A stretch of DNA of 10,492 nucleotides from a virus (IMGVR_UViG_3300020029_000002:1-10492); one strand, 5' to 3'. Shown: positions 1-10,492, counted from the stretch's first letter. Notes: a model not told the origin generated them from the sequence alone. Translations and numbers: made by a program.

Positions 1-84
1 ACCATAGGGGACTATCTTCATTTCGGCCTTGCCATTCTTGGTAAAACCGACTTGAAAACCCTTAAGGGGGTGAAAACATGACAA
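1..84 (-). CDS. VP4: VP4/Rep N-terminal fragment (28 codons) cut by the window edge, redundant with 10372-10455
   Basis: TTG start at 84-82 preceded by GGAGGT. The sequence is identical to the first 84 nt of both full rep genes. It is present only because of the terminal redundancy. Confidence 0.6.
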   Translation of the reverse strand, partial: MSCFHPLKGFQVGFTKNGKAEMKIVPYG

Positions 85-121
85 CTAACTACCTCCAATC
101 GCTACACTCTTAGAGCCGCAA
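1..121. repeat. Terminal direct repeat (left copy), identical to 10372-10492, implying a circular or concatemeric record
   Basis: Comparing 1-121 with 10372-10492 base by base shows no differences. The same sequence also occurs at 5112-5232. Confidence 0.95.
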
Positions 122-153
122 GCTTTTCCGGACTCGGGGCTTGGGTGGTGTCA

Positions 154-190
154 GTGGGAACCAATATATCAAGATAGTATTGGTTCCCAC
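154..190. repeat. 37-nt inverted repeat in the VP2-rep intergenic region (perfect 13-bp arms, 11-nt spacer); candidate cis element such as an origin or recombination site
   Basis: GTGGGAACCAATA (154-166) and TATTGGTTCCCAC (178-190) are exact reverse complements. The spacer TATCAAGATAG is itself partly palindromic (TATC/GATA). No T-tract follows on either strand. The element is identical in unit B. Confidence 0.5.
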
Positions 191-221
191 ACCCTCCACC
201 TGACAGCCTCAGTCGTCAGCC

Positions 222-1202
222 TCAATGACGGCCAGTGCCACCACGAACGGCACCCTTGGCAGAATTCTTACCACCAGTGAAAAAATCACCAATATTTGCT
301 AACCAACCAGAAAGGCCACGATCAGACTGACTACCGGTAAACAAATCACCAAGAGCGCCGGCAGCTTCCCAAAAATTTTCTGGGTAAGCAGACTTAATAT
401 CAAACTGTTGGTCAAATCCAGCTTTTTGTAAATCTTTATTCACCTCGGCATTAAAGGCGGCAATCTCCTTTTGCGTCATAGACTGGATATCATAACCGTA
501 CTTTTGCGCAGCGGCATGAATAGAAGCAGCCACCTTCTGAGCAGCAGCAGACTGATCCGAAGCATACTTGGTACCAGCCAAATGAGCATCCGCGGTGTAC
601 TTCTGAGCCATAGCCTGGATATTAGCAGTATTAAGCTGAGTCTGAGCTTGGAGCTCGGAGGTATACTTGGACATAGCCGTATATTTATCCGCAATGGCCT
701 GATTAGACTGAGCAGAAACACGAGTCGATTCTAGGGAAAGAAGGGAAGAAAGCATAGAACCAAGAAGACCAGAGATAGCGGAATTAGCGCTAGTATCAAC
801 ATTACCCATAGCACCACTCGGAGCGCCCGAAGATGCCGTAGCGCCGGAAGTGACAGCAGCACCACTGCCGCCAGTAACACTAAGAACGGGATTAAGACCA
901 GCCGCAATTAAATCACGAACCTCTCGTTGATGGGCAGTAGAGGACATCCTCTCTTGCCAATCTCTATTTTTTTGGGCCTCTTGACTGTTGTACCGACGCA
1001 TGGTTTCGTACTGCGCTTCCTGCCACTTCCGGAGTTGTTCTGCCTGTTGAGCGCTGGCGGCAGTATTGCTGCCCGCAATACCTTGAAGGGCGCCAGTTAT
1101 AGATCCGGTAGTATTAAGTCGGTATTTATCAAGAGACCCAGGTCTTACAATAGCACCAGGAGAGGCAGTAGTCAAGGCCGACTTAGCCGAATTCATAGCC
1201 AT
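222..1202 (-). CDS. VP2: VP2 minor capsid / DNA pilot protein, unit A (326 aa)
   Basis: ATG at 1202 with GAGGTG 5 nt upstream; TGA at 224-222. It carries the central motif NRDWQERMSSTAHQREVRDLIAAGLNPVL typical of gokushovirus VP2, has an Ala/Gln/Ser-rich composition, and sits directly downstream of VP1. Confidence 0.85.
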   Translation of the reverse strand: MAMNSAKSALTTASPGAIVRPGSLDKYRLNTTGSITGALQGIAGSNTAASAQQAEQLRKWQEAQYETMRRYNSQEAQKNRDWQERMSSTAHQREVRDLIAAGLNPVLSVTGGSGAAVTSGATASSGAPSGAMGNVDTSANSAISGLLGSMLSSLLSLESTRVSAQSNQAIADKYTAMSKYTSELQAQTQLNTANIQAMAQKYTADAHLAGTKYASDQSAAAQKVAASIHAAAQKYGYDIQSMTQKEIAAFNAEVNKDLQKAGFDQQFDIKSAYPENFWEAAGALGDLFTGSQSDRGLSGWLANIGDFFTGGKNSAKGAVRGGTGRH

Positions 1203-1206
1203 AATC

Positions 1207-1341
1207 TCACCTCTTAGTGATGGTCGATAAGGCCAGGGATACTATACATAGGCATAGGCCGAGTAGCCTTACACTGAACGTAGAGGTCGGCAAACATTTG
1301 ATTAGACACAGAACTTGTAACAGCAAGTACGCGATCAACAT
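1207..1341 (-). CDS. Hypothetical overprinted ORF (44 aa, hydrophobic) in an alternative frame of the VP1 3' end, unit A; speculative
   Basis: ATG at 1341-1339 lies 8 nt downstream of GGGAGGA (1356-1350). The product is MLIAYLLLQVLCLIKCLPTSTFSVRLLGLCLCIVSLALSTITKR. The frame is also open, with the same SD and ATG, in unit B. Leu-rich sequence is common in alternative frames here, so confidence is low. Confidence 0.2.
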   Translation of the reverse strand: MLIAYLLLQVLCLIKCLPTSTFSVRLLGLCLCIVSLALSTITKR

Positions 1342-2902
1342 TAGTTTTATCCTCCCGAATCCAAGCATCAGAAAGCTTAGGGAGCTGGGTATACTCGTCG
1401 GCAAGATGCCAGACATCCAAAGAGGCCGGAGCCTTAGAACGCATCTCACCGGCAACACGGGACGGCTTGTAACGGTAATCGGCCCAGGCTTCCTGATAAC
1501 CAAAAACCTCATCATCCTGGGCGGTGCCCTGAGCGTAAATCTCCTTGTTAAGAATAGGCTGCTCACCAATATTGGCAAAGACCGGGAAATAGTAGTCCAG
1601 GCGGTCACGACGAGACCAGAAACGTTCAAGGCCCTGCTGATAGGTATGGTCATAGCGAGCAACCATAACGCCGATCACAAAGCCATGCTCAACAAAGGAT
1701 TTAATAAAGTCGCCGTGGACATCAGTAGTGACACTAAAGGCAGCCGTATCGCCAAGAGGAGTACCATCAGTCTGAGTAGCGGAGTTTTGAACGACCTGAT
1801 TAATATTAACGGGTATACGATTGCCGCCAAGATACTCAGGACGCTGGAGGCGAGCATCGGGAGAAGTAACGCCAAAATGAGACTTAAGGATTTCAATATA
1901 CCGAGTACCTCCTCTAGCGTCTTTCTCATAAAGTTTCTGAACCTGAAAGGCCATGCGCAACTGGTTGATAGTGGCCGCCGTCACAGAACCAGACTGAAGA
2001 GCCCACAGGTTGTCAAAGTACAACGTGCCATCACGAGAAGAACCGGAGGAAAAACGCACACCGGAAGAGATAGAAGTCAAATCAGCACTACTAGACGTAC
2101 CAAAATTCCAAGTTTGAATAACGGAGGAATAATCCACACTACCCGAATCTGCACCAGTTAACCAAGCAGACATAGGAGCCTTAAACTGAGAATGATCGAC
2201 ACGATCAGAAAGAGAAACAACGGGAAGGTTGCCACCCTGGCCGACAGGAATGGTTACATCAGGGCCTTTCTGCGGAGCGGGCAAAGCGGAAGTGAAGTAG
2301 TCATGGAACTTGGCGGCCTTGAAGGGCATACCGCCTTTGACAACATCGGTGATATAGTTGGTGCCATTGGAACCTGCAAGGGTAGCGTCATCCACGGGAA
2401 TATTGAGCGGGTCGGAAAGATTTTCATCACGAAACCACTCGTTCATAATGAGTGCATACGCCCTAAAGGGCAGCGCGTTAACAGAAAGATTGGCGACACC
2501 AGTAGGGATGCCCATGTAATCGGCAATCGAGCCAATAGACCAGCCGCCGGAAGGGGCAGACACCTGGGGGACGGAATACTCGGTGGTGGGAATCCAAGCG
2601 GACTGTGTATTCTCACCCATAAGCTCACGCCAATGCTGCCATACGATACGGTTGGGCACAAAATAAAAATAGGTGTCCAAATAAAGATTATCCATCATAG
2701 GAGTGAGCAGAGTTTGCAGGCGGGCAACCATAGAGGTCTTCAACTGAAAAGTATCGCCGGGAAGAACCTCATCCACATAGAAGGGGATAACGTCTCCAAC
2801 GTTGAAACTGAGTTTAACACTATGGTCACGCCGAAAAGTGCTACGAGCAATATCAAGGTTAGTAGGATTAAGAGCAAATCTTGTATTTTCATTACGAGAC
2901 AA
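1214..2902 (-). CDS. VP1: VP1 major capsid protein, unit A (562 aa)
   Basis: TTG start at 2902-2900 lies 7 nt after GGAGG (2914-2910). The N-terminus FALNPTNLDIARSTFRRDHSVKLSFNVGDVIPFYVDEVLPGDTF and the ~560 aa size match the microvirus F-like/VP1 capsid family. Confidence 0.95.
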   Translation of the reverse strand: MSRNENTRFALNPTNLDIARSTFRRDHSVKLSFNVGDVIPFYVDEVLPGDTFQLKTSMVARLQTLLTPMMDNLYLDTYFYFVPNRIVWQHWRELMGENTQSAWIPTTEYSVPQVSAPSGGWSIGSIADYMGIPTGVANLSVNALPFRAYALIMNEWFRDENLSDPLNIPVDDATLAGSNGTNYITDVVKGGMPFKAAKFHDYFTSALPAPQKGPDVTIPVGQGGNLPVVSLSDRVDHSQFKAPMSAWLTGADSGSVDYSSVIQTWNFGTSSSADLTSISSGVRFSSGSSRDGTLYFDNLWALQSGSVTAATINQLRMAFQVQKLYEKDARGGTRYIEILKSHFGVTSPDARLQRPEYLGGNRIPVNINQVVQNSATQTDGTPLGDTAAFSVTTDVHGDFIKSFVEHGFVIGVMVARYDHTYQQGLERFWSRRDRLDYYFPVFANIGEQPILNKEIYAQGTAQDDEVFGYQEAWADYRYKPSRVAGEMRSKAPASLDVWHLADEYTQLPKLSDAWIREDKTNVDRVLAVTSSVSNQMFADLYVQCKATRPMPMYSIPGLIDHH

Positions 2903-2937
2903 TTTAATACCTCCAGTCTGTAACGGTTGTTCAAAAG

Positions 2938-2960
2938 GAGGGGCCCACAGAGGGCCCCTC
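2938..2960 (-). terminator. GC-rich stem-loop (9-bp stem GAGGGGCCC/GGGCCCCTC, 5-nt loop) followed on the coding strand by CTTTTG; possible leaky intrinsic terminator or attenuator between VP3 and VP1
   Basis: The arms are exact complements at 2938-2946 and 2952-2960. The T-tract on the minus strand is only 4 nt. The stem is conserved in unit B with a different loop. Confidence 0.35.
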
Positions 2961-2974
2961 GTTCTCTGTTGTTC

Positions 2975-2995
2975 ACACGGCCAGGGCGGCCGTGT
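2975..2995. repeat. Second GC-rich stem-loop in the VP3-VP1 spacer (8-bp stem ACACGGCC/GGCCGTGT, 5-nt loop)
   Basis: Exact inverted repeat at 2975-2982 and 2988-2995, identical in unit B (8091-8111). Its function is unknown. Confidence 0.5.
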
Positions 2996-3046
2996 ATGCC
3001 TTGACCAGAGCCTCAGCGACTCAAGCCAATGTCAGGAATATGAAAT

Positions 3047-3559
3047 TTAACCAGCGGGTGAGGCTGGCGCGGGGTCTGTCTCACCTCCTTTCGGGCCCTG
3101 TGAGGCCGCTGGCGGCTCACCAGCGGGATTTTGGGAGGCGGGTGGTGTAACCATACCCATAGCCTCTAACCAGCTCTCAGAGCCTGCCTGAGCAAGCCAG
3201 GCATGGAAAGATTGGCCGAACTTCTCGCGAGTTTCGAGGGGCAGGCTCATAAACGTCTGCTCGGCCTCTATCATGTGATTGAGCAACCCAGCATAGGTCT
3301 GAGGCATCTGGGAGAAATCACCAAACATACCTTGCACCTTTTGCAGGGCGGCAGTATCACCAGCGTTAAACCTGTCCATGATTTTATGGAGATCAACAGA
3401 ATCTTTGTGACTCTGGATAAAGGCATAGAGGTCCTCTTTACCGCTCTCCTTGAGGGTCATAACGCCGAAGCGGTCGAACTCGGGGGAATAGAGAATCTTT
3501 TCGCCGGAGCCGGGCTCAGAGCAAAAATGCTCCTGATCACGATGCCAAGTCTGGAACAT
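3047..3559 (-). CDS. VP3: VP3 internal scaffolding protein, unit A (170 aa)
   Basis: ATG at 3559 lies 7 nt after GGAGG and shares one base with the VP5 stop (TGATG). Motifs LYSPEFD, LYAFIQSHKDSVD, GDFSQMPQTYAGLLN and FMSLPLETREKF resemble gokushovirus VP3. The C-terminal tail is Pro/Ala-rich. Confidence 0.8.
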   Translation of the reverse strand: MFQTWHRDQEHFCSEPGSGEKILYSPEFDRFGVMTLKESGKEDLYAFIQSHKDSVDLHKIMDRFNAGDTAALQKVQGMFGDFSQMPQTYAGLLNHMIEAEQTFMSLPLETREKFGQSFHAWLAQAGSESWLEAMGMVTPPASQNPAGEPPAASQGPKGGETDPAPASPAG

Positions 3560-3828
3560 CAGACATCCTCCTTCTGCTGCATAGAGCGAAGAACCTCCGC
3601 GCCGTCGGAAATGAGCTCGTGGAGCTGGGCCGGAATGAGAACGCCTTTGTCGGAATCAAACTCACCAATCCGGAAAAGCTGGAAATCAGAAGCGTGGGTA
3701 AAGAGCACGCCTTTGGATTCCATAATGGCGTTAGCAAAATTGCGAGCGGCGATATAGTCGTTCTGCTCAGTGTTGAGACCGAAGAAACCGGAACGCAGGT
3801 CACGAATGGCGTAAACGTTAAGCATCAT
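3559..3828 (-). CDS. VP5: VP5-like conserved gokushovirus nonstructural protein, unit A (89 aa from the SD-supported ATG)
   Basis: The ORF track opens at TTG 3861, but GGAGG lies inside that extension, 9 nt upstream of the ATG ATG at 3828. The product MMLNVYAIRD...FQLFRIGEFDSDKGVL resembles the small conserved gokushovirus protein encoded between VP4 and VP3. Confidence 0.7.
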   Translation of the reverse strand: MMLNVYAIRDLRSGFFGLNTEQNDYIAARNFANAIMESKGVLFTHASDFQLFRIGEFDSDKGVLIPAQLHELISDGAEVLRSMQQKEDV

Positions 3829-4003
3829 TTTTATCATCCTCCAAAAAACCAGAAATTTCAATCAAACGGATTTGAAGCTCCAAGGCCAGGAACTCATAAA
3901 AATCGAGCTCCATGTTGAGGGAACGCCAAACTTTGGCGGCCAGCTCGTAACAGTCGGCATCGAGATTCAGCCGGACACAGACGATAGCACGTTCGTCATT
4001 CAC
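3818..4003 (-). CDS. Small acidic hypothetical protein, unit A (61 aa)
   Basis: GTG start at 4003 lies 8 nt after GGAGGT and overlaps the upstream stop (GTGA). The 3' end overlaps the VP5 start by 11 nt. Compared with unit B, most differences over the shared ~50 codons are synonymous (about 9 synonymous and 3 replacement codon changes by eye). Confidence 0.55.
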   Translation of the reverse strand: MNDERAIVCVRLNLDADCYELAAKVWRSLNMELDFYEFLALELQIRLIEISGFLEDDKNDA

Positions 4004-4113
4004 ATCCTGATACCTCCGCGATAGATTTTAGGGTTCACGTTGATACGCTTGGAATTGACGGCGGTGTGGCGAAAAACCTGCCTATCCTGAGAGCGCTTCA
4101 TTTTTCGAGCCAT
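4000..4113 (-). CDS. Small highly basic protein (37 aa), a J/VP8-like DNA-binding or packaging protein, unit A
   Basis: Too short for the ORF track. ATG at 4113-4111 lies 2 nt after the rep stop and 8 nt after GGGAG. The product is MARKMKRSQDRQVFRHTAVNSKRINVNPKIYRGGIRM. It is Arg/Lys-rich with the C-terminal RGGIR(M/L) ending seen in gokushovirus small basic proteins. Confidence 0.7.
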   Translation of the reverse strand: MARKMKRSQDRQVFRHTAVNSKRINVNPKIYRGGIRM

Positions 4114-4115
4114 GA

Positions 4116-5195
4116 TTACAACTCCCTTCTCAAATTTTTTATACGGTTATGGAGCACGCGCTCCTGGGTCTCGAGGATTTCTTCGTAGGTCATGGTGGAC
4201 TGGGCCAGCTTGGCCTTCTTGCCTTCCTCGGCAAAGTGCTTGCGCTTGGCCTTAATCTCAGCCATAAGCTCCGGTTGTTCCAGGTCAAACAGCTTATCGA
4301 AATACTTGGGAGGGCGAATCTTGCGACCGCCATCAGGAGTAGAAATAGAGATTGTGTCATACTCCATGCACTCGGGATGGTCTTCGTACCACCGGCGGCC
4401 AATACCAGGGCGGCGAGACATGTCGACATACTCGGGCTGGATGTTAAACGTCTGGTAGACATCAGCTTCTGGGCCACAAGCCTTTTTCATAACGTACCGG
4501 GCAACGTAAGCACAGGTTTCCCAGTTAACCTGACCAACCAGGACATAGCCGATAGGCTTCCGGATGCAAGGGGTGTCATACTCCCCTTTCTGTTCTACCA
4601 CACTCCAGGCCTTTTGTAAAGCCTCAGAATAGTAATATCGATATCCAACGTCGCCGCGCTGGATATCTTGAACAGGAACAAGGTCATGCAAGTGGAGACC
4701 AAAAACTATTGCATGGTAGTGAGGGCGGAAGGTGGTAGAGCCATACTCACCGCACATGAAATACCGAATATGGTCATCCGGGAAGGCTTTCCGAAGGCGC
4801 TTCCAGAAAAGCTGCATATGACGCTTCTCCAAACTAAGAGACTGCATCGCCTCTCCGGTCTCCGGATCAGCATACCAATGACGAGGGACATGCTCTTCAT
4901 CATAAGTCAAAGTCAGGAAGTAAGCGGAATCGTGATATTCGAGTTCCATCATACAGCGGTTAGCCCATTCACGAGAGCGGGCTATGCGGCAGCCTTCACA
5001 CTTGCCGCAAGGAATTTCAACCCAGTCAAGCCAAGTCTTTTCCGCATAGGCAGAAATCTCAGGAACATCGGACGTACAGATGCGACCTTTTCGCAATTCT
5101 AGGTGATGAACACCATAGGGGACTATCTTCATTTCGGCCTTGCCATTCTTGGTAAAACCGACTTGAAAACCCTTAAGGGGGTGAAAACATGACAA
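4116..5195 (-). CDS. VP4: VP4 replication initiation protein (HUH rolling-circle endonuclease), unit A (359 aa)
   Basis: TTG start at 5195 lies 7 nt after GGAGG. RCR motifs are present: FLTLTY (I), RPHYHAIVFG (II, HUH) and YVARYVMKK (III, catalytic Tyr). The N-terminal MSCFHP is typical of microvirus Rep. Confidence 0.95.
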   Translation of the reverse strand: MSCFHPLKGFQVGFTKNGKAEMKIVPYGVHHLELRKGRICTSDVPEISAYAEKTWLDWVEIPCGKCEGCRIARSREWANRCMMELEYHDSAYFLTLTYDEEHVPRHWYADPETGEAMQSLSLEKRHMQLFWKRLRKAFPDDHIRYFMCGEYGSTTFRPHYHAIVFGLHLHDLVPVQDIQRGDVGYRYYYSEALQKAWSVVEQKGEYDTPCIRKPIGYVLVGQVNWETCAYVARYVMKKACGPEADVYQTFNIQPEYVDMSRRPGIGRRWYEDHPECMEYDTISISTPDGGRKIRPPKYFDKLFDLEQPELMAEIKAKRKHFAEEGKKAKLAQSTMTYEEILETQERVLHNRIKNLRREL

Positions 5196-5301
5196 CTAAC
5201 TACCTCCAATCGCTACACTCTTAGAGCCGCAAGCTTTTCCGGACTCGGGGCTTGGGTGGTGTCAGTGGGAACCAATATATCAAGATAGTATTGGTTCCCA
5301 C
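5104..5301. repeat. 198-nt block exactly identical to 10364-10492 plus 122-190 (the junction block of both units)
   Basis: Read by eye with no mismatches. It covers rep codons 1-30, the rep SD and leader, and the whole palindrome. The flanks diverge immediately on both sides. Confidence 0.9.
5265..5301. repeat. 37-nt inverted repeat, unit B copy (identical to 154-190)
   Basis: The arms and spacer are the same as in unit A. The last base of the right arm (5301) is also the last base of the 198-nt identity block. Confidence 0.5.
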
Positions 5302-5327
5302 GACCCTCCAATTTTCAGCCTCAGACG

Positions 5328-6353
5328 TTAACGTTTTTTGCTGGCAGCCTTACCAGACCAAGTATCACCAACAGCACCGGCAATCATCTTAGCATAATCA
5401 AAAATATTATCACCCCAAGGGAGGCCAAGCTGATCAAGAGCTTCGCGACCAGACGCAAGTTCAGGACCAAAAGCCTGCCAAGCATTAGATGGAAAACTTT
5501 CCCTTATATCAAAATCGTGTTTAAAACCAGCTTCTTGCAAATCTTTATTCACAGAAGCGTTAAAAGCAGCAATCTCCTTTTGCGTCATAGACTGGATATC
5601 ATAACCGTACTTTTGCGCAGCGGCATGAATAGAAGCAGCCACCTTCTGAGCAGCAGCAGACTGATCAGAAGCATACTTGGTACCAGCCAAATGAGCATCC
5701 GCGGTGTACTTCTGAGCCATAGCCTGGATGTTAGCAGTATTAAGTTGGGTCTGAGCTTGCAGACCAGCAATATCCTTGGAAGTCTTAGAGGAAAGCTCGG
5801 AAGTATATTTACTCATAGCCGTATACTTATCCGCAATAGCCTGATTAGATTGAGCAGATACACGAGTAGCCTCTAAGGAAAGAAAGGAAGAAAGCAGAGT
5901 ACCAAGAAGACCAGAGATAGCGGAATTAGCGCTAGTATCAACATTACCCATAGCACCACTCGGAGCGCTAGAAGATGCCGAAGCGCCGGAAGTGACAGCA
6001 GCACCGCTGCCGCCAGTAACACTAAGAACGGGATTAAGACCAGCCGCAATTAAATCACGTACCTCTCTCTGATGGGCGGTAGAGCTCATACGCTCCTGCC
6101 AATCACGATTTTTTTGGGCTTCCTCAGAATTGTATTTTCTTGCAATCTGGGATTGCTGCTCCTGCCAGGCCCGCAGCTCCTCCGCCTGTTTGGCGGAGGC
6201 TGCGGAATTCTGGCCGGCGATACCTTGGAGAGCACCAACATAAGAGCCGAACTTATTAGCAGCAGAAGAAGGGGGGGTAGACTGCTGCTTCGCGGAAAGT
6301 TGCTGCTTCGCCTGGGTATATTTAGAGCCAAAAGCCCATTCGCCGAGCGTCAT
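5328..6353 (-). CDS. VP2: VP2 minor capsid / DNA pilot protein, unit B (341 aa)
   Basis: ATG at 6353 lies 9 nt after GGAGG; TAA at 5330-5328. The central region is near-identical to unit A VP2. The N-terminal ~35 aa and C-terminal ~60 aa are unrelated, and there is an 11-aa insertion (SSKTSKDIAGL). Confidence 0.85.
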   Translation of the reverse strand: MTLGEWAFGSKYTQAKQQLSAKQQSTPPSSAANKFGSYVGALQGIAGQNSAASAKQAEELRAWQEQQSQIARKYNSEEAQKNRDWQERMSSTAHQREVRDLIAAGLNPVLSVTGGSGAAVTSGASASSSAPSGAMGNVDTSANSAISGLLGTLLSSFLSLEATRVSAQSNQAIADKYTAMSKYTSELSSKTSKDIAGLQAQTQLNTANIQAMAQKYTADAHLAGTKYASDQSAAAQKVAASIHAAAQKYGYDIQSMTQKEIAAFNASVNKDLQEAGFKHDFDIRESFPSNAWQAFGPELASGREALDQLGLPWGDNIFDYAKMIAGAVGDTWSGKAASKKR

Positions 6354-6357
6354 TATA

Positions 6358-6495
6358 TCATACCTCCTTAGTGGTGGTCAATAAGACCAGGGATAGAATA
6401 CACAGGCATAGGCCGAGTAGCCTTACACTGGATGTAGAGGTCGGCAAACATTTGGTTAGACACAGAACTTGTAACAGCAAGTACGCGATCAACAT
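6358..6495 (-). CDS. Hypothetical overprinted ORF (45 aa, hydrophobic), unit B counterpart of 1207-1341; speculative
   Basis: The GGGAGGA SD and ATG (6495-6493) are the same as in unit A. The product is MLIAYLLLQVLCLTKCLPTSTSSVRLLGLCLCILSLVLLTTTKEV. Confidence 0.2.
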   Translation of the reverse strand: MLIAYLLLQVLCLTKCLPTSTSSVRLLGLCLCILSLVLLTTTKEV

Positions 6496-8020
6496 TAGTT
6501 TTATCCTCCCGAATCCAAGCATCAGAAAGCTTAGGGAGCTGGGTATACTCGTCGGCAAGATGCCAGACATCCAAAGAGGCCGGAGCCTTAGAGCGCATTT
6601 CACCAGCAACACGAGACGGCTTGTAACGGTAGTCGGCCCAGGCTTCTTGGTAGCCAAAAACTTCATTGTCCTGGGCAGTGCCCTGGGCGTAAATCTCCTT
6701 ATTCAGGATAGGCTGCTCACCAATATTGGCGAAAACCGGGAAATAGTAGTCCAAACGGTCACGACGGGACCAAAAACGCTCAAGTCCCTGCTGGTAAGTA
6801 TGGTCATAACGGGCAACCATAATGCCGATCACAAAACCATGCTCCACAAAAGACTTAATAAAATCGCCATGCACATCAGTTGTGACAGAGAAAGCAGCAG
6901 TATCACCAAGAGGAGTACCTTCGGCTTGAGTAGAAGAACTCTGAACGACCTGGTTAATATTGACAGGGATACGATTGCCGCCAAGATACTCAGGGCGCTG
7001 AAGACGAGCGTCAGGACTGGTAACACCGAAGTGAGACTTAAGAATTTCAATGTAACGAGTACCTCCTCTTGCATCCTTTTCATAAAGCTTTTGCACCTGA
7101 AAAGCCATGCGGAGCTGATTGATAGTAGCAGAGGAAACAGAACCGTCATTGATGGCCCAAAGATTAGTAGGAACAAAGGACGAGACATTACCAGGAAGAG
7201 TACTTACATGAGCATTAAGAGCACCAGGTTCAGGAGAAGTACTTTCATTAACGCAAACCACATTATAAGGCATTTCATCAAAAGTCCTAATTTTAAGAGG
7301 AAAAGAAGACAAACCAGAACTTTCGCTAAGAGTTCGAACAGGATAATTCGCACCACCAGACACAGGGATGGTCACATCAGGGCCTTTCTGCGGAGCAGGC
7401 AGCGCGGAAGTGAAGTAGTCGTGGAACTTGGCGGCCTTAAAGGGCATGCCGCCTTTAACAACATCGGTGATATAATTGGTGCCATTGGAACCTGCAAGGG
7501 TAGCATCATCCACAGGGATATTGAGCGGATCGGAAAGGTTTTCGTCACGAAACCACTCGTTCATAATAAGGGCGTAGGCACGGAAGGGGAGGGCGTTAAC
7601 AGAGAGGTTAGCAACACCAGTAGGGATGCCCATATAGTCGGCAATGGAACCAATAGACCAGCCACCAGAGGGCGCAGTTACCTGAGGGACAGAGTACTCA
7701 GTCTTGGGAATCCAAGCGGACTGTGTATTCTCACCCATCAGCTCACGCCAATGCTGCCAGACAATACGGTTAGGCACGAAGTAAAAATAAGTGTCCAGGT
7801 AAAGATTGTCCATCATGGGAGTGAGCAGCGTTTGGAGGCGGGCCACCATAGAAGTCTTCAACTGGAAAGTGTCTCCAGGTAAAACTTCATCGACATAGAA
7901 GGGGATAACGTCTCCGACGTTGAAACTGAGTTTAACGCTATGGTCACGCCGAAAAGTACTACGAGCAATGTCAAGGTTAGTAGGATTAAGAGCAAATCTT
8001 GTATTTTCATTACGAGACAA
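6368..8020 (-). CDS. VP1: VP1 major capsid protein, unit B (550 aa from the conserved TTG)
   Basis: The ORF track extends to GTG 8092. The TTG at 8020-8018 behind GGAGGT, homologous to the unit A start, is the supported start. The protein is nearly identical to unit A except for residues ~221-296. Confidence 0.93.
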   Translation of the reverse strand: MSRNENTRFALNPTNLDIARSTFRRDHSVKLSFNVGDVIPFYVDEVLPGDTFQLKTSMVARLQTLLTPMMDNLYLDTYFYFVPNRIVWQHWRELMGENTQSAWIPKTEYSVPQVTAPSGGWSIGSIADYMGIPTGVANLSVNALPFRAYALIMNEWFRDENLSDPLNIPVDDATLAGSNGTNYITDVVKGGMPFKAAKFHDYFTSALPAPQKGPDVTIPVSGGANYPVRTLSESSGLSSFPLKIRTFDEMPYNVVCVNESTSPEPGALNAHVSTLPGNVSSFVPTNLWAINDGSVSSATINQLRMAFQVQKLYEKDARGGTRYIEILKSHFGVTSPDARLQRPEYLGGNRIPVNINQVVQSSSTQAEGTPLGDTAAFSVTTDVHGDFIKSFVEHGFVIGIMVARYDHTYQQGLERFWSRRDRLDYYFPVFANIGEQPILNKEIYAQGTAQDNEVFGYQEAWADYRYKPSRVAGEMRSKAPASLDVWHLADEYTQLPKLSDAWIREDKTNVDRVLAVTSSVSNQMFADLYIQCKATRPMPVYSIPGLIDHH

Positions 8021-8055
8021 GTTAATACCTCCAGTCTGTAACGGTTGTTCAAAAG

Positions 8056-8076
8056 GAGGGGCCCATGGGGCCCCTC
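8056..8076 (-). terminator. GC-rich stem-loop, unit B (same 9-bp stem, 3-nt loop) followed by CTTTTG on the coding strand; possible leaky terminator
   Basis: GAGGGGCCC (8056-8064) and GGGCCCCTC (8068-8076). The loop is ATG here and ACAGA in unit A. Confidence 0.35.
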
Positions 8077-8090
8077 GCTCTCTGTTGTTC

Positions 8091-8111
8091 ACACGGCCAG
8101 GGCGGCCGTGT
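8091..8111. repeat. Second GC-rich stem-loop, unit B (ACACGGCC/GGCCGTGT)
   Basis: Identical to 2975-2995. Confidence 0.5.
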
Positions 8112-8154
8112 AGGCTGCTTTAATCAGATTCAGCCAATGTCAGGAATATGAAAT

Positions 8155-8676
8155 TTAACCAGCGGGTGAGGCTGGGGCGGGGGTAGATACATCACCTCCT
8201 TCACTGGAATGGCCCTGGGAGGCCGTAGGAGGCTCACCAGCAGGTTTTTCAGTGGTGGGGGGTGTAACCATACCCATAGACTCTAACCAGCTCTCAGAGC
8301 CTGCTTGAGCGAGCCAAGCATGAAAGGATTGGCCGAACTTCTCTCGGGTCTCAAGGGGTAAGCTCATAAACGTCTGCTCGGCCTCTATCATGTGATTGAG
8401 CAGCCCGGCATAGGTCTGGGGCATCTGGCTGAAATCACCAAACATGCCTTGCACCTTTTGCAGAACGGCAGTATCACCAGCATTGAACCTGTCCATAATT
8501 TTATGGAGGTCAACGGAATCTTTGTGGCTCTGGATGAAGGCATAGAGGTCTTCTTTGCCGCTCTCCTTGAGGGTCATAACGCCGAAGCGGTCGAACTCGG
8601 GGGAATAGAGAATCTTTTCGCCGGAGCCGGGCTCAGAGCAAAAATGCTCCTGATCGCGGTGCCAAGTCTGGAACAT
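8155..8676 (-). CDS. VP3: VP3 internal scaffolding protein, unit B (173 aa)
   Basis: It has the same start context as unit A. The body is near-identical, and the Pro/Ala-rich C-terminal tail is diverged and 3 aa longer. Confidence 0.8.
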   Translation of the reverse strand: MFQTWHRDQEHFCSEPGSGEKILYSPEFDRFGVMTLKESGKEDLYAFIQSHKDSVDLHKIMDRFNAGDTAVLQKVQGMFGDFSQMPQTYAGLLNHMIEAEQTFMSLPLETREKFGQSFHAWLAQAGSESWLESMGMVTPPTTEKPAGEPPTASQGHSSEGGDVSTPAPASPAG

Positions 8677-8945
8677 CAGACATCCTCCTTCTGCTGCATA
8701 GAGCGAAGAACCTCCGCGCCGTCGGAAATGAGCTCGTGGAGCTGGGCCGGAATGAGAACGCCTTTGTCAGAATCGAACTCGCCAATACGGAAAAGCTGAA
8801 AATCGGAAGCATGGGTAAAAAGCACGCCTTTGGATTCCATAATGGCGTTAGCAAAATTGCGAGCGGCGATATAGTCGTTCTGCTCAGTGTTGAGACCGAA
8901 GAAACCAGAACGCAGGTCACGAATGGCGTAAACGTTAAGCATCAT
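8676..8945 (-). CDS. VP5: VP5-like conserved nonstructural protein, unit B (89 aa)
   Basis: The protein is 100 percent identical to unit A, although I count 9 nucleotide substitutions, all synonymous. Confidence 0.7.
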   Translation of the reverse strand: MMLNVYAIRDLRSGFFGLNTEQNDYIAARNFANAIMESKGVLFTHASDFQLFRIGEFDSDKGVLIPAQLHELISDGAEVLRSMQQKEDV

Positions 8946-9007
8946 TTTTATCATCCTCCAAAAAACCAGAAATTTCAATCAAACGGATTTGAAGCTCCAA
9001 GGCCATC

Positions 9008-9098
9008 AACTGGTAAAAATAAACTAGTAAAAATCGAGGACACAAACTGGTAAAAATAAACTAGTAAAAATCGAGGCCAGAAACTAGTAAAAGTCGAG
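9008..9098. repeat. AT-rich tandem repeat: two 37-nt periods (32 nt exact, 9008-9039 = 9045-9076) plus a partial third copy; present only in unit B
   Basis: The sub-motif AACT(G/A)GTAAAA(A/G)T occurs five times, starting at 9008, 9022, 9045, 9059 and 9082. A related AACTCATAAAAAT occurs at 9151 and at 3891 in unit A. Confidence 0.85.
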
Positions 9099-9263
9099 CT
9101 CCGTATAACCAGAAAGTTCAATTAAGCGGATTTGCAACTCCAGGGCAAGGAACTCATAAAAATCAAGCTCCATATCGAGAGAGCGCCAAACTTTGGCGGC
9201 CAGCTCGTAACAGTCGGCATCGAGATTCAACCGGACACAGACGGTAGCACGTTCGTCATTCAC
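9084..9263 (-). CDS. Small acidic hypothetical protein, unit B (59 aa, C-terminus remodelled by the repeat insertion)
   Basis: One residue below the shortest ORF in the track. It has the same GTG start and GGAGG as unit A. The product is MNDERATVCVRLNLDADCYELAAKVWRSLDMELDFYEFLALELQIRLIELSGYTELDFY, and the TAG stop (9086-9084) lies inside the first repeat copy. Confidence 0.5.
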   Translation of the reverse strand: MNDERATVCVRLNLDADCYELAAKVWRSLDMELDFYEFLALELQIRLIELSGYTELDFY

Positions 9264-9373
9264 ATCCTGATGCCTCCGCGATAGATTTTGGGATTCACAT
9301 TGATTCGCTTGGAATTGACAGCGGTGTGGCGGAAGACTTGCCTATCCTGGGAACGCTTCATACGTCGAGCCAT
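9260..9373 (-). CDS. Small highly basic J/VP8-like protein, unit B (37 aa)
   Basis: The product MARRMKRSQDRQVFRHTAVNSKRINVNPKIYRGGIRM has one replacement (K4R) against unit A plus several synonymous changes. Confidence 0.7.
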   Translation of the reverse strand: MARRMKRSQDRQVFRHTAVNSKRINVNPKIYRGGIRM

Positions 9374-9375
9374 AA

Positions 9376-10455
9376 TTACAACTCCCTTCTCAAATTTTTT
9401 ATACGATTATGGAGCACGCGCTCCTGGGTCTCGAGGATTTCTTCGTAGGTCATAGTGGACTGGGCCAGCTTGGCCTTCTTGCCTTCCTCGGCAAAGTGCT
9501 TGCGCTTGGCCTTAATCTCAGCCATAAGCTCCGGTTGTTCCAGGTCAAACAGCTTATCGAAATACTTAGGGGGACGAATCTTACGGCCACCATCTGGGGT
9601 GGAGATAGAGATAGTATCATACTCCATGCACTCGGGATGGTCTTCGTACCACCGGCGGCCAATACCAGGGCGGCGAGACATGTCGACATACTCGGGCTGG
9701 ATGTTAAACGTCTGGTAGGCATCGGCCTCGGGGCCAGAGGCTTTCTTGAGGACGTACCGGGCGACGTAAGCGCAGGTTTCCCAGTTAACTTGACCAACCA
9801 AAACATAGCCAATAGGCTTCCGGACGCAAGGGGTGTCATACGCCCCTTTCTGTTCTACCACAGACCAAGCCCGTTGTAAAGACTCCGAGTAAAAATACTG
9901 ATATCCGACATCGCCACGCCGGATATCCTGCACAGGCATCAAGTCATGCAAGTGGAGTCCAAAAACTATTGCATGGTAATGAGGCCGGAAGGTGGTGGAG
10001 CCATACTCACCGCACATAAAATACCGAATATGGTCATCCGGGAAGGCTTTCCGAAGACGCTTCCAGAAAAGCTGCATGTGACGCTTCTCCAAACTAAGTG
10101 ACTGCATCGCCTCTCCGGTCTCCGGATCAGCATACCAATGGCGGGGTACATGTTCTTCATCATAGGTCAAGGTCAAGAAGTAGGCGGAATCGTGATATTC
10201 GAGTTCCATCATACAGCGGTTAGCCCAATCACGAGAGCGGGCTATACGGCAGCCTTCACACTTGCCACAGGGGATTTCAACCCAATCAAGCCAGGTCTTT
10301 TCAGCGTAGGCGGAAATCTCGGGGACATCGGACGTACAAATGCGACCCTTGCGCAGCTCCAAATGATGAACACCATAGGGGACTATCTTCATTTCGGCCT
10401 TGCCATTCTTGGTAAAACCGACTTGAAAACCCTTAAGGGGGTGAAAACATGACAA
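9376..10455 (-). CDS. VP4: VP4 replication initiation protein (HUH Rep), unit B (359 aa)
   Basis: It has the same TTG start, SD and motifs I-III as unit A. Twelve of 359 residues differ from unit A, while many more nucleotide differences are synonymous. Confidence 0.95.
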   Translation of the reverse strand: MSCFHPLKGFQVGFTKNGKAEMKIVPYGVHHLELRKGRICTSDVPEISAYAEKTWLDWVEIPCGKCEGCRIARSRDWANRCMMELEYHDSAYFLTLTYDEEHVPRHWYADPETGEAMQSLSLEKRHMQLFWKRLRKAFPDDHIRYFMCGEYGSTTFRPHYHAIVFGLHLHDLMPVQDIRRGDVGYQYFYSESLQRAWSVVEQKGAYDTPCVRKPIGYVLVGQVNWETCAYVARYVLKKASGPEADAYQTFNIQPEYVDMSRRPGIGRRWYEDHPECMEYDTISISTPDGGRKIRPPKYFDKLFDLEQPELMAEIKAKRKHFAEEGKKAKLAQSTMTYEEILETQERVLHNRIKNLRREL

Positions 10456-10492
10456 CTAACTACCTCCAATCGCTACACTCTTAGAGCCGCAA
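10372..10492. repeat. Terminal direct repeat (right copy), identical to 1-121
   Basis: Exact match to the first 121 nt of the window. Confidence 0.95.

What the first reader, a model, noticed from the sequence alone, without database searches (positions are those of the whole stretch)
1..10492. Two diverged gokushovirus genomes joined head-to-tail in one apparently circular 10,371-nt molecule
Seen in the sequence: positions 1-121 equal 10372-10492 exactly. The full gene set (VP4, basic protein, acidic ORF, VP5, VP3, VP1, VP2) occurs twice, with periods of 5111 and 5260 nt. The copies are clearly different genomes. There are 26 substitutions in 240 nt of rep (4861-5100 vs 10121-10360), the VP1 loop and VP2 termini are unalignable, and unit B has a 143-nt insertion. 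Established knowledge: microvirus T=1 capsids package monomers of roughly 4.4-6.5 kb. Trivial concatemer artefacts of a circular genome give identical copies, not diverged ones. Inference, option (a): this is a genuine heterodimer. It could be a cointegrate from a single crossover between co-infecting replicative forms inside the identical block, failed termination or template switching at the origin, or a tandem array as known for Xer/dif-integrating ssDNA phages such as CTXphi and the enterobacterial gokushovirus prophages. Inference, option (b): this is a figure-eight de Bruijn graph artefact that threads two co-occurring strains through their shared 198-nt exact repeat. Option (b) is a serious alternative.
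Basis: partly seen in the sequence, partly recalled or inferred. Interest (0 to 1): 0.8.

Follow-up and report, generated by a model that had tools for sequence, protein, structure and literature searches.

The report
Two microvirus genomes in one contig
A 10.4-kb "circular" contig holds two complete but different copies of a small gut phage genome joined head to tail; it is most likely two co-occurring strains threaded together by the assembler, not a double-length virus.

Summary
Positions 1-121 equal 10372-10492, and the 10,371-nt circle holds two complete gokushovirus gene sets of 5,111 and 5,260 nt that are 85% identical.

Besides the exact 198-nt block there is an exact 137-nt block inside VP1. 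Both are longer than the 121-nt terminal overlap, which looks like an assembler k-mer. The graph therefore has two knots and allows four solutions. Two of them are pairs of ordinary monomers.

All 79 public relatives I retrieved carry one genome copy. Fifteen are circular monomers of 5.05-5.38 kb and 17 are complete single-copy prophages. Each unit resembles natural monomers along its whole length. The exact 198-nt allele occurs in natural monomers next to three different VP2 3' ends. One relative from IMG/VR is an evident chimera of two strains.

My best reading is an assembly artefact (about 0.68). A genuine recombinational dimer of replicative forms remains possible (about 0.17). The Xer/dif tandem-array route is not supported.

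A more interesting side result is that the clade is a temperate phage of Flavonifractor plautii. It integrates at a 20-nt palindrome inside its own rep gene.

The parts
1..121 (.). Terminal direct repeat, copy 1 (equals 10372-10492). This overlap closes the circle.
   Evidence: The match is exact and 121 is the longest prefix that equals a suffix. Another contig of the clade, L002, also has a DTR of exactly 121. Other assemblies of relatives give 55, 77, 99 or 141, which are common assembler k values.
10372..10492 (.). Terminal direct repeat, copy 2.
5104..5301 (-). R1, the exact 198-nt block shared by both units. The other copy is 10364-10371 plus 1-190. On the coding strand it runs from the hairpin through the intergenic region and ribosome-binding site to rep codons 1-31.
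   Evidence: Exact match. The block has two allele types in the clade. The same exact allele occurs in natural monomers L061, L062, L064 and L077.
10364..10492 (-). Second copy of R1. It continues at 1-190 across the contig origin, which lies 8 nt inside R1.
1302..1438 (-). R2, the exact 137-nt block in the VP1 3' part, unit A copy. It is the second repeat longer than 121 nt.
   Evidence: In L063 the block is exact with a B-type flank on one side and an A-type flank on the other.
6456..6592 (-). R2, unit B copy.
154..190 (-). Conserved 13-bp-stem hairpin (GTGGGAACCAATA / CTATCTTGATA / TATTGGTTCCCAC on the coding strand). It forms one end of R1 and is a candidate replication origin or module boundary.
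   Evidence: DNA fold of -13 kcal/mol, z = -5.7. It is exact in 19 of 23 relatives that were found independently of it, and two relatives carry a compensatory stem change.
5265..5301 (-). The same hairpin, second copy.
4116..5195 (-). rep/VP4 of unit A (359 aa, TTG start after GGAGG). Motifs: FLTLTY 93-98, HUH 159-165, YVARYV 230-235.
   Evidence: PF23343 and phrog_942. Motif positions. The exact protein is on 19 public contigs; the 10 shown are 2.1-5.4 kb, each with one genome copy or part of one.
9376..10455 (-). rep/VP4 of unit B (359 aa, 12 aa differences from A).
   Evidence: No exact public match.
4568..4587 (-). attP core of unit A inside rep codons 203-210: AGGGGAGTATGACACCCCTT.
   Evidence: Prophage junctions in relatives fall here. 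The pattern of attP, attL, attR and attB cores is fully consistent.
9828..9847 (-). att core of unit B: AGGGGCGTATGACACCCCTT. This is the attL-type hybrid although phage DNA flanks it on both sides.
   Evidence: It is unique among about 33 rep-intact genomes.
4000..4113 (-). 37-aa basic ORF, unit A. The unit B copy is 9260-9373.
   Evidence: Translations. The ORF is called in relatives.
3818..4003 (-). 61-aa ORF, unit A. The unit B copy is 59 aa at 9084-9263.
   Evidence: No family hit.
3559..3861 (-). VP5, unit A. The unit B copy is 8676-8978 and the proteins are 100% identical.
   Evidence: PF20577. Identity.
3047..3559 (-). VP3 scaffold, unit A (170 aa). The unit B copy is 8155-8676 (173 aa).
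   Evidence: PF09675. The exact proteins are on 16 and 4 public contigs.
1214..2902 (-). VP1 major capsid, unit A (562 aa).
   Evidence: PF02305, E = 1e-168.
6368..8020 (-). VP1 major capsid, unit B (550 aa from the TTG at 8020; the ORF is open to 8092).
222..1202 (-). VP2 pilot protein, unit A (326 aa).
   Evidence: phrog_5158 and pilot-protein PHROGs. The only exact record is the 10,492-nt JGI contig itself.
5328..6353 (-). VP2 pilot protein, unit B (341 aa).
9005..9147 (-). 143-nt insertion specific to unit B. It includes a 37-nt tandem pair at 9000-9073.
   Evidence: It is 100% identical in prophages L013 and L038, so it is a natural allele.

Best explanation
The contig is an assembly product. 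The sample held at least two co-occurring strains of one gut gokushovirus clade. Each strain is an ordinary genome of about 5.1-5.3 kb, either a free monomer circle or an excised or integrated prophage.

The strains share two exact stretches longer than the assembler's k-mer of 121: R1 (198 nt, running from the intergenic hairpin to rep codon 31) and R2 (137 nt, in VP1). In a de Bruijn graph each stretch collapses into one node with two entries and two exits. The graph has two Eulerian single-circle solutions and two two-monomer solutions. The assembler output one of the single circles.

R1 is identical in both strains probably because unit B recently acquired A's hairpin-proximal 198 nt by recombination. 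That step is inferred. The threading error itself is also inferred, because no reads are available.
For: 1. The terminal overlap is 121 nt, and L002 of the same clade also has a DTR of exactly 121. Other assemblies of relatives give DTRs of 55, 77, 99 and 141, which I recognise as common assembler k values. The circular closure is therefore graph-derived.
2. The only exact A/B matches of at least 121 nt are R1 (198) and R2 (137). The next longest is 113. This is the minimal graph that allows a two-genome cycle.
3. None of the 79 relatives with phage genes has two copies. Fifteen are DTR circles of 5,049-5,378 nt net and 17 are complete attL-attR prophages of 5,070-5,306 nt. The closest GenBank records are 5,057-5,083 nt.
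4. Both units have every ORF intact, so neither depends on the other.
5. Each unit resembles natural single genomes over its whole length. A resembles L077 (a circle, same contig seen in 4 samples) and L078 (a prophage). B resembles L025 and L007/L030/L037.
6. The exact R1 allele occurs in natural monomers next to three different VP2 3' ends: L061/62/64, L077, and with one substitution L016/L060. Two strains sharing it is therefore ordinary.
7. L026 from IMG/VR is an evident chimera of two strains of this clade, with an inverted 555-nt piece.
8. Curators of microvirus MAGs report concatenations of two or more genomes. The largest accepted microvirus genome is 8.3 kb (PMC9239249). CheckV flags concatenated genomes in IMG/VR (PMC8116208).
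Against: 1. As I understand assemblers, a pure unitig assembler cannot output a loop that passes twice through repeats longer than k. Some read or pair information or a heuristic therefore chose this path, and it may have been right.
2. With k = 121 the reads were longer than 121 nt. Reads of 250 nt would span both repeats.
3. The leftA-R1-rightB junction of the contig is a natural combination, seen in L016 and L060.
4. The clade recombines heavily. L063 is an alternating mosaic of the A and B haplotypes with only 55 other differences. Co-infection, and therefore recombination intermediates such as dimers, must occur.
5. The contig origin is 8 nt inside R1, not at the branch k-mer expected for a simple two-strain graph. 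I cannot explain this.
Confidence: 0.68

Rival explanations
1. The contig is a genuine heterodimeric double-stranded replicative form. Two co-infecting genomes were fused head to tail by one homologous crossover in a shared identical stretch (R1, R2 or another). Such a circle could not be packaged. Rolling-circle replication from one origin to the next would release monomers A and B.
For: The units are head to tail with all genes intact. Mosaicism shows frequent co-infection and recombination between exactly these haplotypes. The junction leftA-R1-rightB is a natural combination. The assembler needed some evidence to thread both repeats. From memory, circular dimers and figure-8 forms of phiX174 RF DNA are classical observations.
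Against: No dimer occurs among 79 relatives. To be assembled as the only path, a dimer would have to dominate over its own monomeric products. The graph is equally satisfied by two monomers. The sample type and coverage are unknown.
Confidence: 0.17
2. The contig is an in-vitro chimera. Rolling-circle or multiple-displacement amplification of ssDNA circles switched template between strains inside an identical stretch. This would create physically real heterodimer molecules in the library but not in nature.
For: From general knowledge, viromes with ssDNA phages are often MDA-amplified, and MDA makes concatemers and template-switch chimeras. The junctions lie in exact shared stretches.
Against: Nothing in the sequence shows that amplification was used. 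Chimeras are individually rare and would not normally outweigh the cis junctions. This is not testable here.
Confidence: 0.07
3. The contig is an excised tandem double lysogen, or a cointegrate made by site-specific att x att recombination. This is the CTXphi or enterogokushovirus-like reading.
For: The clade is temperate and both units carry the att core. Both would target the same attB, so a double lysogen would be tandem.
Against: The window has no host DNA and no dif-like motif. None of 17 complete prophages is tandem. An att x att product would carry reps that are hybrid at codon 203-210. Instead rep-A is an allele combination found unchanged on 19 public contigs, none longer than 5.4 kb among the 10 shown. 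Identical tandem copies would collapse in short-read assemblies, so tandem arrays in general are not excluded.
Confidence: 0.04
4. The units themselves are mis-phased. The true genomes are (R1+S3+R2+S2) and (R1+S1+R2+S4), or more than two strains contributed, so 'A' and 'B' as drawn never existed. This is a sub-case of the artefact reading.
For: R2 is a second knot. L063 carries exact R2 with a B-type flank before it and an A-type flank after it, and it alternates A and B haplotype blocks. The contig origin is not at a two-strain branch point.
Against: L077 and L078 resemble unit A across both knots. L007/L030/L037 carry B-type flanks on both sides of R2.
Confidence: 0.04

Closest known systems
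Concatenated microvirus genomes in metagenome-assembled data sets (Kirchberger, Martinez & Ochman 2022, PMC9239249; CheckV concatemer flag, PMC8116208)
   Same: One contig holds two complete microvirus genomes head to tail, is apparently circular, and is about twice the family's genome size.
   Different: Reported cases are 'often identical' copies. Here the copies are 85% identical, which needs two strains plus shared repeats longer than k rather than simple over-extension of one circle.
Multimeric (circular dimer, figure-8) replicative forms of phiX174 and plasmid dimers or cointegrates (classical literature, cited from memory)
   Same: Two unit genomes are fused head to tail by one crossover in homologous DNA. 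The product is not packageable and is resolved to monomers.
   Different: Those were shown physically by electron microscopy, gels and genetics. Here there is only a short-read graph path, and a minor intermediate would not be expected to assemble as the sole path.
CTXphi/RS1 tandem arrays and XerCD/dif-integrating enterogokushoviruses (PMC7062461)
   Same: An ssDNA phage without an integrase of its own is found integrated in relatives. Tandem arrays would give head-to-tail heterologous units.
   Different: There is no dif-like motif. The att site is a 20-nt GC-rich palindrome inside rep, not a 28-bp dif in non-coding DNA. The host is a Clostridia species. No tandem arrays were seen.
Gut Microviridae sp. 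genomes MG945467 (children feces, 5083 nt), MG945361 and MG945820 (pig feces)
   Same: They have the same gene order. MG945467 and MG945361 are 88-89% identical over 88-92% of unit A; MG945820 is 88% identical over 72%.
   Different: They are single monomers, and none is closer than 89%.

Membership tests
Gokushovirus-type microvirus genome (each unit) | F-type major capsid protein VP1 | tested here: met
   PF02305 with E = 1e-168 and 8e-170; phrog_514.
Gokushovirus-type microvirus genome (each unit) | HUH replication initiator VP4 with HUH and Y-x-x-x-Y motifs | tested here: met
   PF23343 and phrog_942. HYHAIVF at 159-165 and YVARYV at 230-235.
Gokushovirus-type microvirus genome (each unit) | Internal scaffold VP3 (Chlamy_scaf), VP5 and VP2 pilot protein; no external scaffold or spike genes | tested here: met
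   PF09675, PF20577 and pilot-protein PHROGs. No other family hits among the ORFs tested.
Gokushovirus-type microvirus genome (each unit) | Genome of about 4.3-6.5 kb | tested here: met
   The units are 5111 and 5260 nt. The whole contig, at 10,371 nt, does not meet this. The largest curated microvirus is 8.3 kb (PMC9239249).
Strain-threading / concatenation assembly artefact | The terminal overlap equals an assembler k-mer length | tested here: inconclusive
   The DTR is 121, odd, and the same as L002. Relatives show DTRs at typical k values. The assembler and its k are not known.
Strain-threading / concatenation assembly artefact | Junctions lie in exact repeats longer than k that both units share | tested here: met
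   R1 is 198 nt and R2 is 137 nt. No other exact match reaches 121 nt.
Strain-threading / concatenation assembly artefact | Each unit is a complete, autonomous genome whose type exists alone elsewhere | tested here: met
   All ORFs are intact. A-like L077/L078 and B-like L025/L007/L030 exist alone. All 79 relatives are single copy.
Strain-threading / concatenation assembly artefact | Reads or pairs support the cis (monomer) junctions rather than the trans ones | not testable with these tools
   No reads are available. The contig's own sample is absent from the searchable collections.
Xer/dif-integrating ssDNA phage tandem array (CTXphi, enterogokushovirus) | A 28-bp dif-like motif with XerC and XerD arms | tested here: not met
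   The best matches to E. coli and B. subtilis dif have 10 and 12 mismatches of 28, no better than shuffled sequence.
Xer/dif-integrating ssDNA phage tandem array (CTXphi, enterogokushovirus) | Host DNA flanking the array | tested here: not met
   The window is a closed circle of phage DNA only. Relatives do have host flanks.
Xer/dif-integrating ssDNA phage tandem array (CTXphi, enterogokushovirus) | Tandem copies at the integration site | tested here: not met
   None of 17 complete prophages is tandem. Identical tandems would collapse in short-read assemblies, so this is weak evidence.
Recombinational circular dimer of replicative forms | Head-to-tail units joined within homologous sequence | tested here: met
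Recombinational circular dimer of replicative forms | Physical existence of a double-length circle | not testable with these tools
   This needs reads, long reads, or a gel and Southern blot.

The most novel reading that the evidence does not exclude
The contig may record a real heterodimeric episome of two temperate Flavonifractor gokushoviruses. This would be a recombination or replication intermediate with two hairpin origins and two att sites. It would be the vehicle for the modular exchange seen across the clade. If integrated through one att site, it would place an intact rep between two origins and allow CTXphi-like virion production without excision.
Probability: 0.17. Interest if true: 0.55.

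Novelty: not a real feature. Interest (0 to 1): 0.3.

Why it matters
The heterodimer itself matters mainly as a curation warning. Double-length 'circular' microvirus contigs made of diverged copies can pass as complete genomes, inflate genome-size ranges and create false linkage between alleles.

If the molecule were real, it would be direct metagenomic evidence of the recombination intermediates behind microvirus mosaicism.

The side result has more biological weight. A widespread human-gut gokushovirus clade is temperate in a Gram-positive-type Clostridia host, Flavonifractor plautii. It integrates at a short non-dif palindrome that lies inside its own rep gene, between the HUH and tyrosine motifs. 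Lysogeny therefore physically splits the replication gene.

Tried and rejected
1. Looked for the same strains elsewhere to phase the junctions.
- Exact-protein look-ups for VP2-A, VP2-B, rep-B, VP1-A and VP1-B found nothing.
- 40-nt VP1-loop patterns of A and B found nothing in IMG/VR.
- The only record of VP2-A is the 10,492-nt JGI contig itself.

2. Tested whether R1 is identical simply because it is conserved in the clade. Rejected: its centre is 60-72% identical on average and comes in two allele types.

3. Tried to use relatives to decide cis versus trans junctions. This was uninformative. leftA-R1-rightA-like (L077, L063, L065, L078) and leftA-R1-rightB-like (L016, L060) both occur naturally, and leftB is never next to a type-1 block.

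4. Made a histogram of exact-run end points to look for recombination hotspots. It showed no clear signal.

5. Checked longer contigs of relatives as possible dimers (L011, L013, L021, L023, L027, L030, L033, L038, L080). All are one prophage plus host DNA.

6. Tested for dif-likeness. Rejected.

7. Considered the hairpin as an intrinsic terminator. Rejected because no T-run follows it on the coding strand.

Full report
OBSERVATION

The window's first 121 bases equal its last 121 bases exactly, and no longer prefix equals a suffix. The implied circle is 10,371 nt and splits into unit A (1-5111) and unit B (5112-10371).

A global alignment of the units gives 4315 matches, 738 mismatches and 265 gap columns, which is 85.4% identity over aligned bases. 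Stretches of 96-100% identity alternate with stretches of 40-55% at the VP1 loop and at both ends of VP2. Unit B has a 143-nt insertion at about 9005.

All genes are on the minus strand, in this order in both units:
- rep/VP4 (PF23343)
- a 37-aa basic ORF
- a 61/59-aa ORF
- VP5 (PF20577)
- VP3 (PF09675)
- VP1 (PF02305, E about 1e-169)
- VP2 (pilot-protein PHROGs)

Protein identity between A and B is rep 96.7%, VP5 100%, VP3 91.3%, VP1 86.1% and VP2 67.3%.

The exact matches between the units are 198 nt (R1: 5104-5301 = 10364-10371 plus 1-190), 137 nt (R2: 1302-1438 = 6456-6592, in VP1), then 113, 109 and 102 nt and shorter. Only R1 and R2 exceed 121 nt.

The 121-nt overlap is very probably the assembler's final k. 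Another contig of the same clade, L002, has a DTR of exactly 121. Other assemblies of relatives have DTRs of 55, 77, 99 and 141, which I recognise as common k values.

In a k = 121 graph, R1 and R2 each collapse to one node with two entries and two exits. Call the four unique arcs S1 (191-1301), S2 (1439-5103), S3 (5302-6455) and S4 (6593-10363). The graph then has four solutions:
- the contig's circle, S1-S2-S3-S4;
- a second single circle, S1-S4-S3-S2;
- the monomer pair (S1,S2) + (S3,S4);
- the monomer pair (S1,S4) + (S3,S2).

A wrong choice at either knot therefore turns two monomers into an apparent heterodimer.

THE CLADE

A 44-nt pattern from the hairpin at the end of R1 retrieved 26 IMG/VR contigs. 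The 37-nt hairpin itself retrieved 14 metagenome contigs and one GTDB genome contig. Exact-protein look-ups for VP3-A, VP3-B, rep-A and VP2-A relatives added more. An att-core pattern added 11 further loci.

Of 83 loci, 79 carry phage genes, and none carries two copies (and the gene tables).
- Fifteen are DTR circles of 5,049-5,378 nt net.
- Seventeen are complete prophages of 5,070-5,306 nt between attL and attR. Some are the same sequence held in two collections.
- Contigs of 8-12 kb (L011, L013, L021, L023, L027, L030, L033, L038, L080) are one prophage plus host genes, not dimers.
- The closest GenBank records are monomers of 5,057-5,083 nt from child and pig faeces, at 88-89% identity.

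The contig itself is a JGI record. VP2-A is 100% identical to a protein seen on a single contig of 10,492 nt. Its sample is not otherwise reachable.

IS R1 IDENTICAL BECAUSE IT IS CONSERVED?

No. Across relatives the hairpin and the first rep codons are conserved, but the central ~100 nt of R1 average only 60-72% identity. That region comes in two allele types. Type 1 is 93-99.5% identical to the window (13 loci) and type 2 is about 70-73% identical (about 26 loci). Both copies in the window are type 1 and identical to each other.

This exact 198-nt allele does circulate in natural single genomes. It is exact in L061, L062, L064 and L077, and has one substitution in L016, L059, L060 and L065. 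It sits next to three different VP2 3' ends: A-like, B-like and a third type. The hairpin end of R1 is therefore a module boundary in the clade, and two co-occurring strains sharing the allele is unremarkable.

One oddity remains. In all 16 relatives with R1 (at most 3 substitutions), the rep-side flank is A-type. In all 13 relatives with a B-like flank, the block is type 2. The leftB|R1 junction at 10363|10364 is thus unique to this contig. Either unit B is a very recent recombinant that took A's hairpin-proximal 198 nt, or that junction is an assembly join. A template switch about 200 nt after initiation at the hairpin would produce exactly such a tract, if the hairpin is the origin.

PHASING FROM RELATIVES

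rep-A is found unchanged on 19 public contigs; the 10 retrieved are 2.1-5.4 kb, each with one genome copy or part of one.
- L077 (a circle, same contig recorded in four samples) and L078 (a prophage) resemble unit A through VP2, R2, the A-type VP1 loop, rep and R1.
- L025 and L007/L030/L037 resemble unit B.
- L016 and L060 join rep-A and R1 to a B-like VP2 3' end.
- L063 is an alternating mosaic of the A and B haplotypes. It has 294 A-sites, 472 B-sites, 17 sites matching neither and 38 private differences. Its exact R2 is flanked by B-type sequence on one side and A-type on the other.

The population is a recombining swarm in which every junction type occurs. Relatives therefore cannot phase this contig. 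They do show that both unit types exist as ordinary single genomes.

L026 from IMG/VR is an obvious two-strain chimera, with an inverted 555-nt fragment of a second strain. This shows that such assemblies do mis-join strains of this clade.

VERDICT ON THE MOLECULE

The sequence cannot distinguish a physical heterodimer from a threaded graph. Several points favour an artefact (about 0.68):
- the graph-derived closure;
- junction repeats longer than k;
- two autonomous units;
- 79 of 79 single-copy relatives;
- a demonstrated chimera in the same clade;
- published notes that microvirus MAG sets contain concatenations, with the largest accepted genome at 8.3 kb (PMC9239249; PMC8116208).

Three points argue against the artefact:
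- The assembler needed some evidence or heuristic to pass twice through repeats longer than k.
- One of the contig's junctions is a natural combination.
- Heavy mosaicism implies co-infection, so recombinational RF dimers are physically plausible (about 0.17). From memory, these are classical for phiX174.

An amplification chimera cannot be assessed (about 0.07).

The Xer/dif tandem-array idea is disfavoured (about 0.04):
- There is no dif-like motif.
- There is no host DNA in the window.
- No tandem prophage was found.
- rep-A is not hybrid at the att site.

If the dimer were real, rolling-circle synthesis from one origin to the next would release ordinary monomers. It would be a transient intermediate, not a new genome type.

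SIDE RESULT: A TEMPERATE GOKUSHOVIRUS WITH ATT INSIDE REP

In relatives the phage-host junctions fall at window 4568-4587 (unit A) and 9828-9847 (unit B), which is rep codons 203-210. The core is AGGGG-x-GTATGAC-y-CCCCTT. The two variable positions sort as follows:

| Site | x, y | Where seen |
|---|---|---|
| attP | A, A | about 33 rep-intact genomes |
| attL | C, A | 20 left junctions |
| attR | A, G | about 27 right junctions |
| attB | C, G | three empty host sites (L072, L073, L076) |

This is conservative site-specific exchange within GTATGAC.

The site lies between the HUH motif (159-165) and the YVARYV tyrosines (230-235). A single prophage therefore has a split rep gene.

attB forms a good hairpin (-9.7 kcal/mol, z = -3.8). 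It lies a few tens of nucleotides upstream of the start of a 1,195-aa S-layer-homology protein gene. That protein and a neighbouring ABC ATPase are exact matches to Flavonifractor plautii proteins WP_162614112.1 and ANU40339.1. Host flanks are 60-63% G+C against 49.5% for the phage.

The site is not dif-like. No paper in the searchable library links Flavonifractor with microvirus prophages. A 2022 survey names Erysipelatoclostridium and Mammaliicoccus as the first Gram-positive hosts. The recombinase is unknown. It could be a host tyrosine recombinase or, speculatively, the phage HUH Rep acting on an origin-like stem-loop.

Unit B's core reads C, A although phage DNA flanks it on both sides. 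This is unique among rep-intact genomes and I cannot explain it.

THE HAIRPIN

The 37-nt hairpin at 154-190 and 5265-5301 folds at -13 kcal/mol with z = -5.7. It is exact in 19 of 23 relatives that were found independently of it. Two relatives carry a compensatory A>G / T>C change in the stem. Its loop and stem junction reads CTTGATAT on the coding strand. From memory, this resembles the phiX174 origin nick context. That is a lead, not a test.

Noticed in passing
window 4568-4587 and 9828-9847 (minus strand); L004-L045, L066-L076, L080: The clade is temperate. Prophage junctions fall inside rep codons 203-210 at the palindrome AGGGG-x-GTATGAC-y-CCCCTT. The cores are attP = A,A, attL = C,A, attR = A,G, and three empty host sites have attB = C,G. 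Integration separates the HUH motif from the catalytic tyrosines of Rep. The site is not dif-like.
   Followed up: yes
L021:5200-11547, L080:488-4075, L023:1-4435, L072, L073, L076: The host is Flavonifractor plautii. The flanking SLH protein (WP_162614112.1) and ABC ATPase (ANU40339.1) match exactly. attB lies a few tens of nucleotides upstream of the SLH gene start. I found no paper linking Flavonifractor and microvirus prophages. PMC10197239 lists a 6-kb predicted prophage in strain YL31 at 0.460-0.466 Mb, which I did not check.
   Followed up: partly
window 9828-9847: Unit B's att core is the attL-type hybrid (C on the left arm, giving Rep E207A) although phage DNA lies on both sides. All other ~33 rep-intact genomes have A there. 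It could be a mutation or a footprint of imprecise excision. Unexplained.
   Followed up: partly
window 154-190 and 5265-5301: The 13-bp-stem hairpin that bounds R1 is exact in 19 of 23 independently found relatives. L069 and L074 show a compensatory stem change. On the coding strand the loop contains CTTGATAT, which from memory resembles the phiX174 origin nick context. No T-run follows it, so it is not a typical terminator.
   Followed up: partly
window 5151-5250 (and 48-147): The rep 5' end and the upstream intergenic region exist as two discrete allele types in the clade (about 95% versus about 70% identity to the window). In relatives they are linked to different rep flank types.
   Followed up: partly
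L063 (Logan ERR14060896, 4297 nt): This contig from another sample is an alternating mosaic of the window's A and B haplotypes: 294 A-sites, 472 B-sites, only 17 matching neither and 38 private. It switches at R2 and at least five other places. It is either a natural recombinant of the same two lineages or another mis-phased assembly.
   Followed up: partly
L026 (IMGVR_UViG_3300020047_001834): This public viral contig is a chimera. A 555-nt piece of one strain (VP2 3' end, type-1 block and rep N-terminus) is joined in inverted orientation to a near-complete genome of another strain that carries a type-2 block.
   Followed up: partly
window 1 / 10372: The contig origin lies 8 nt inside R1 rather than at the branch k-mer (10364) expected for a two-strain k = 121 graph. 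This hints at a third variant in the sample or at post-processing.
   Followed up: no
window 9000-9147: Unit B's 143-nt insertion contains a 37-nt tandem pair (AGGCCATCAACTGGTAAAAATAAACTAGTAAAAATCG and a 92% copy). The insertion is 100% identical in prophages L013 and L038. Its function is unknown.
   Followed up: no
window 1217-2161, 2192-2923 and 6371-7882 (+ strand): Long open reading frames of 314, 243 and 503 aa run antisense to VP1 in both units. This is probably a compositional by-product and was not examined.
   Followed up: no
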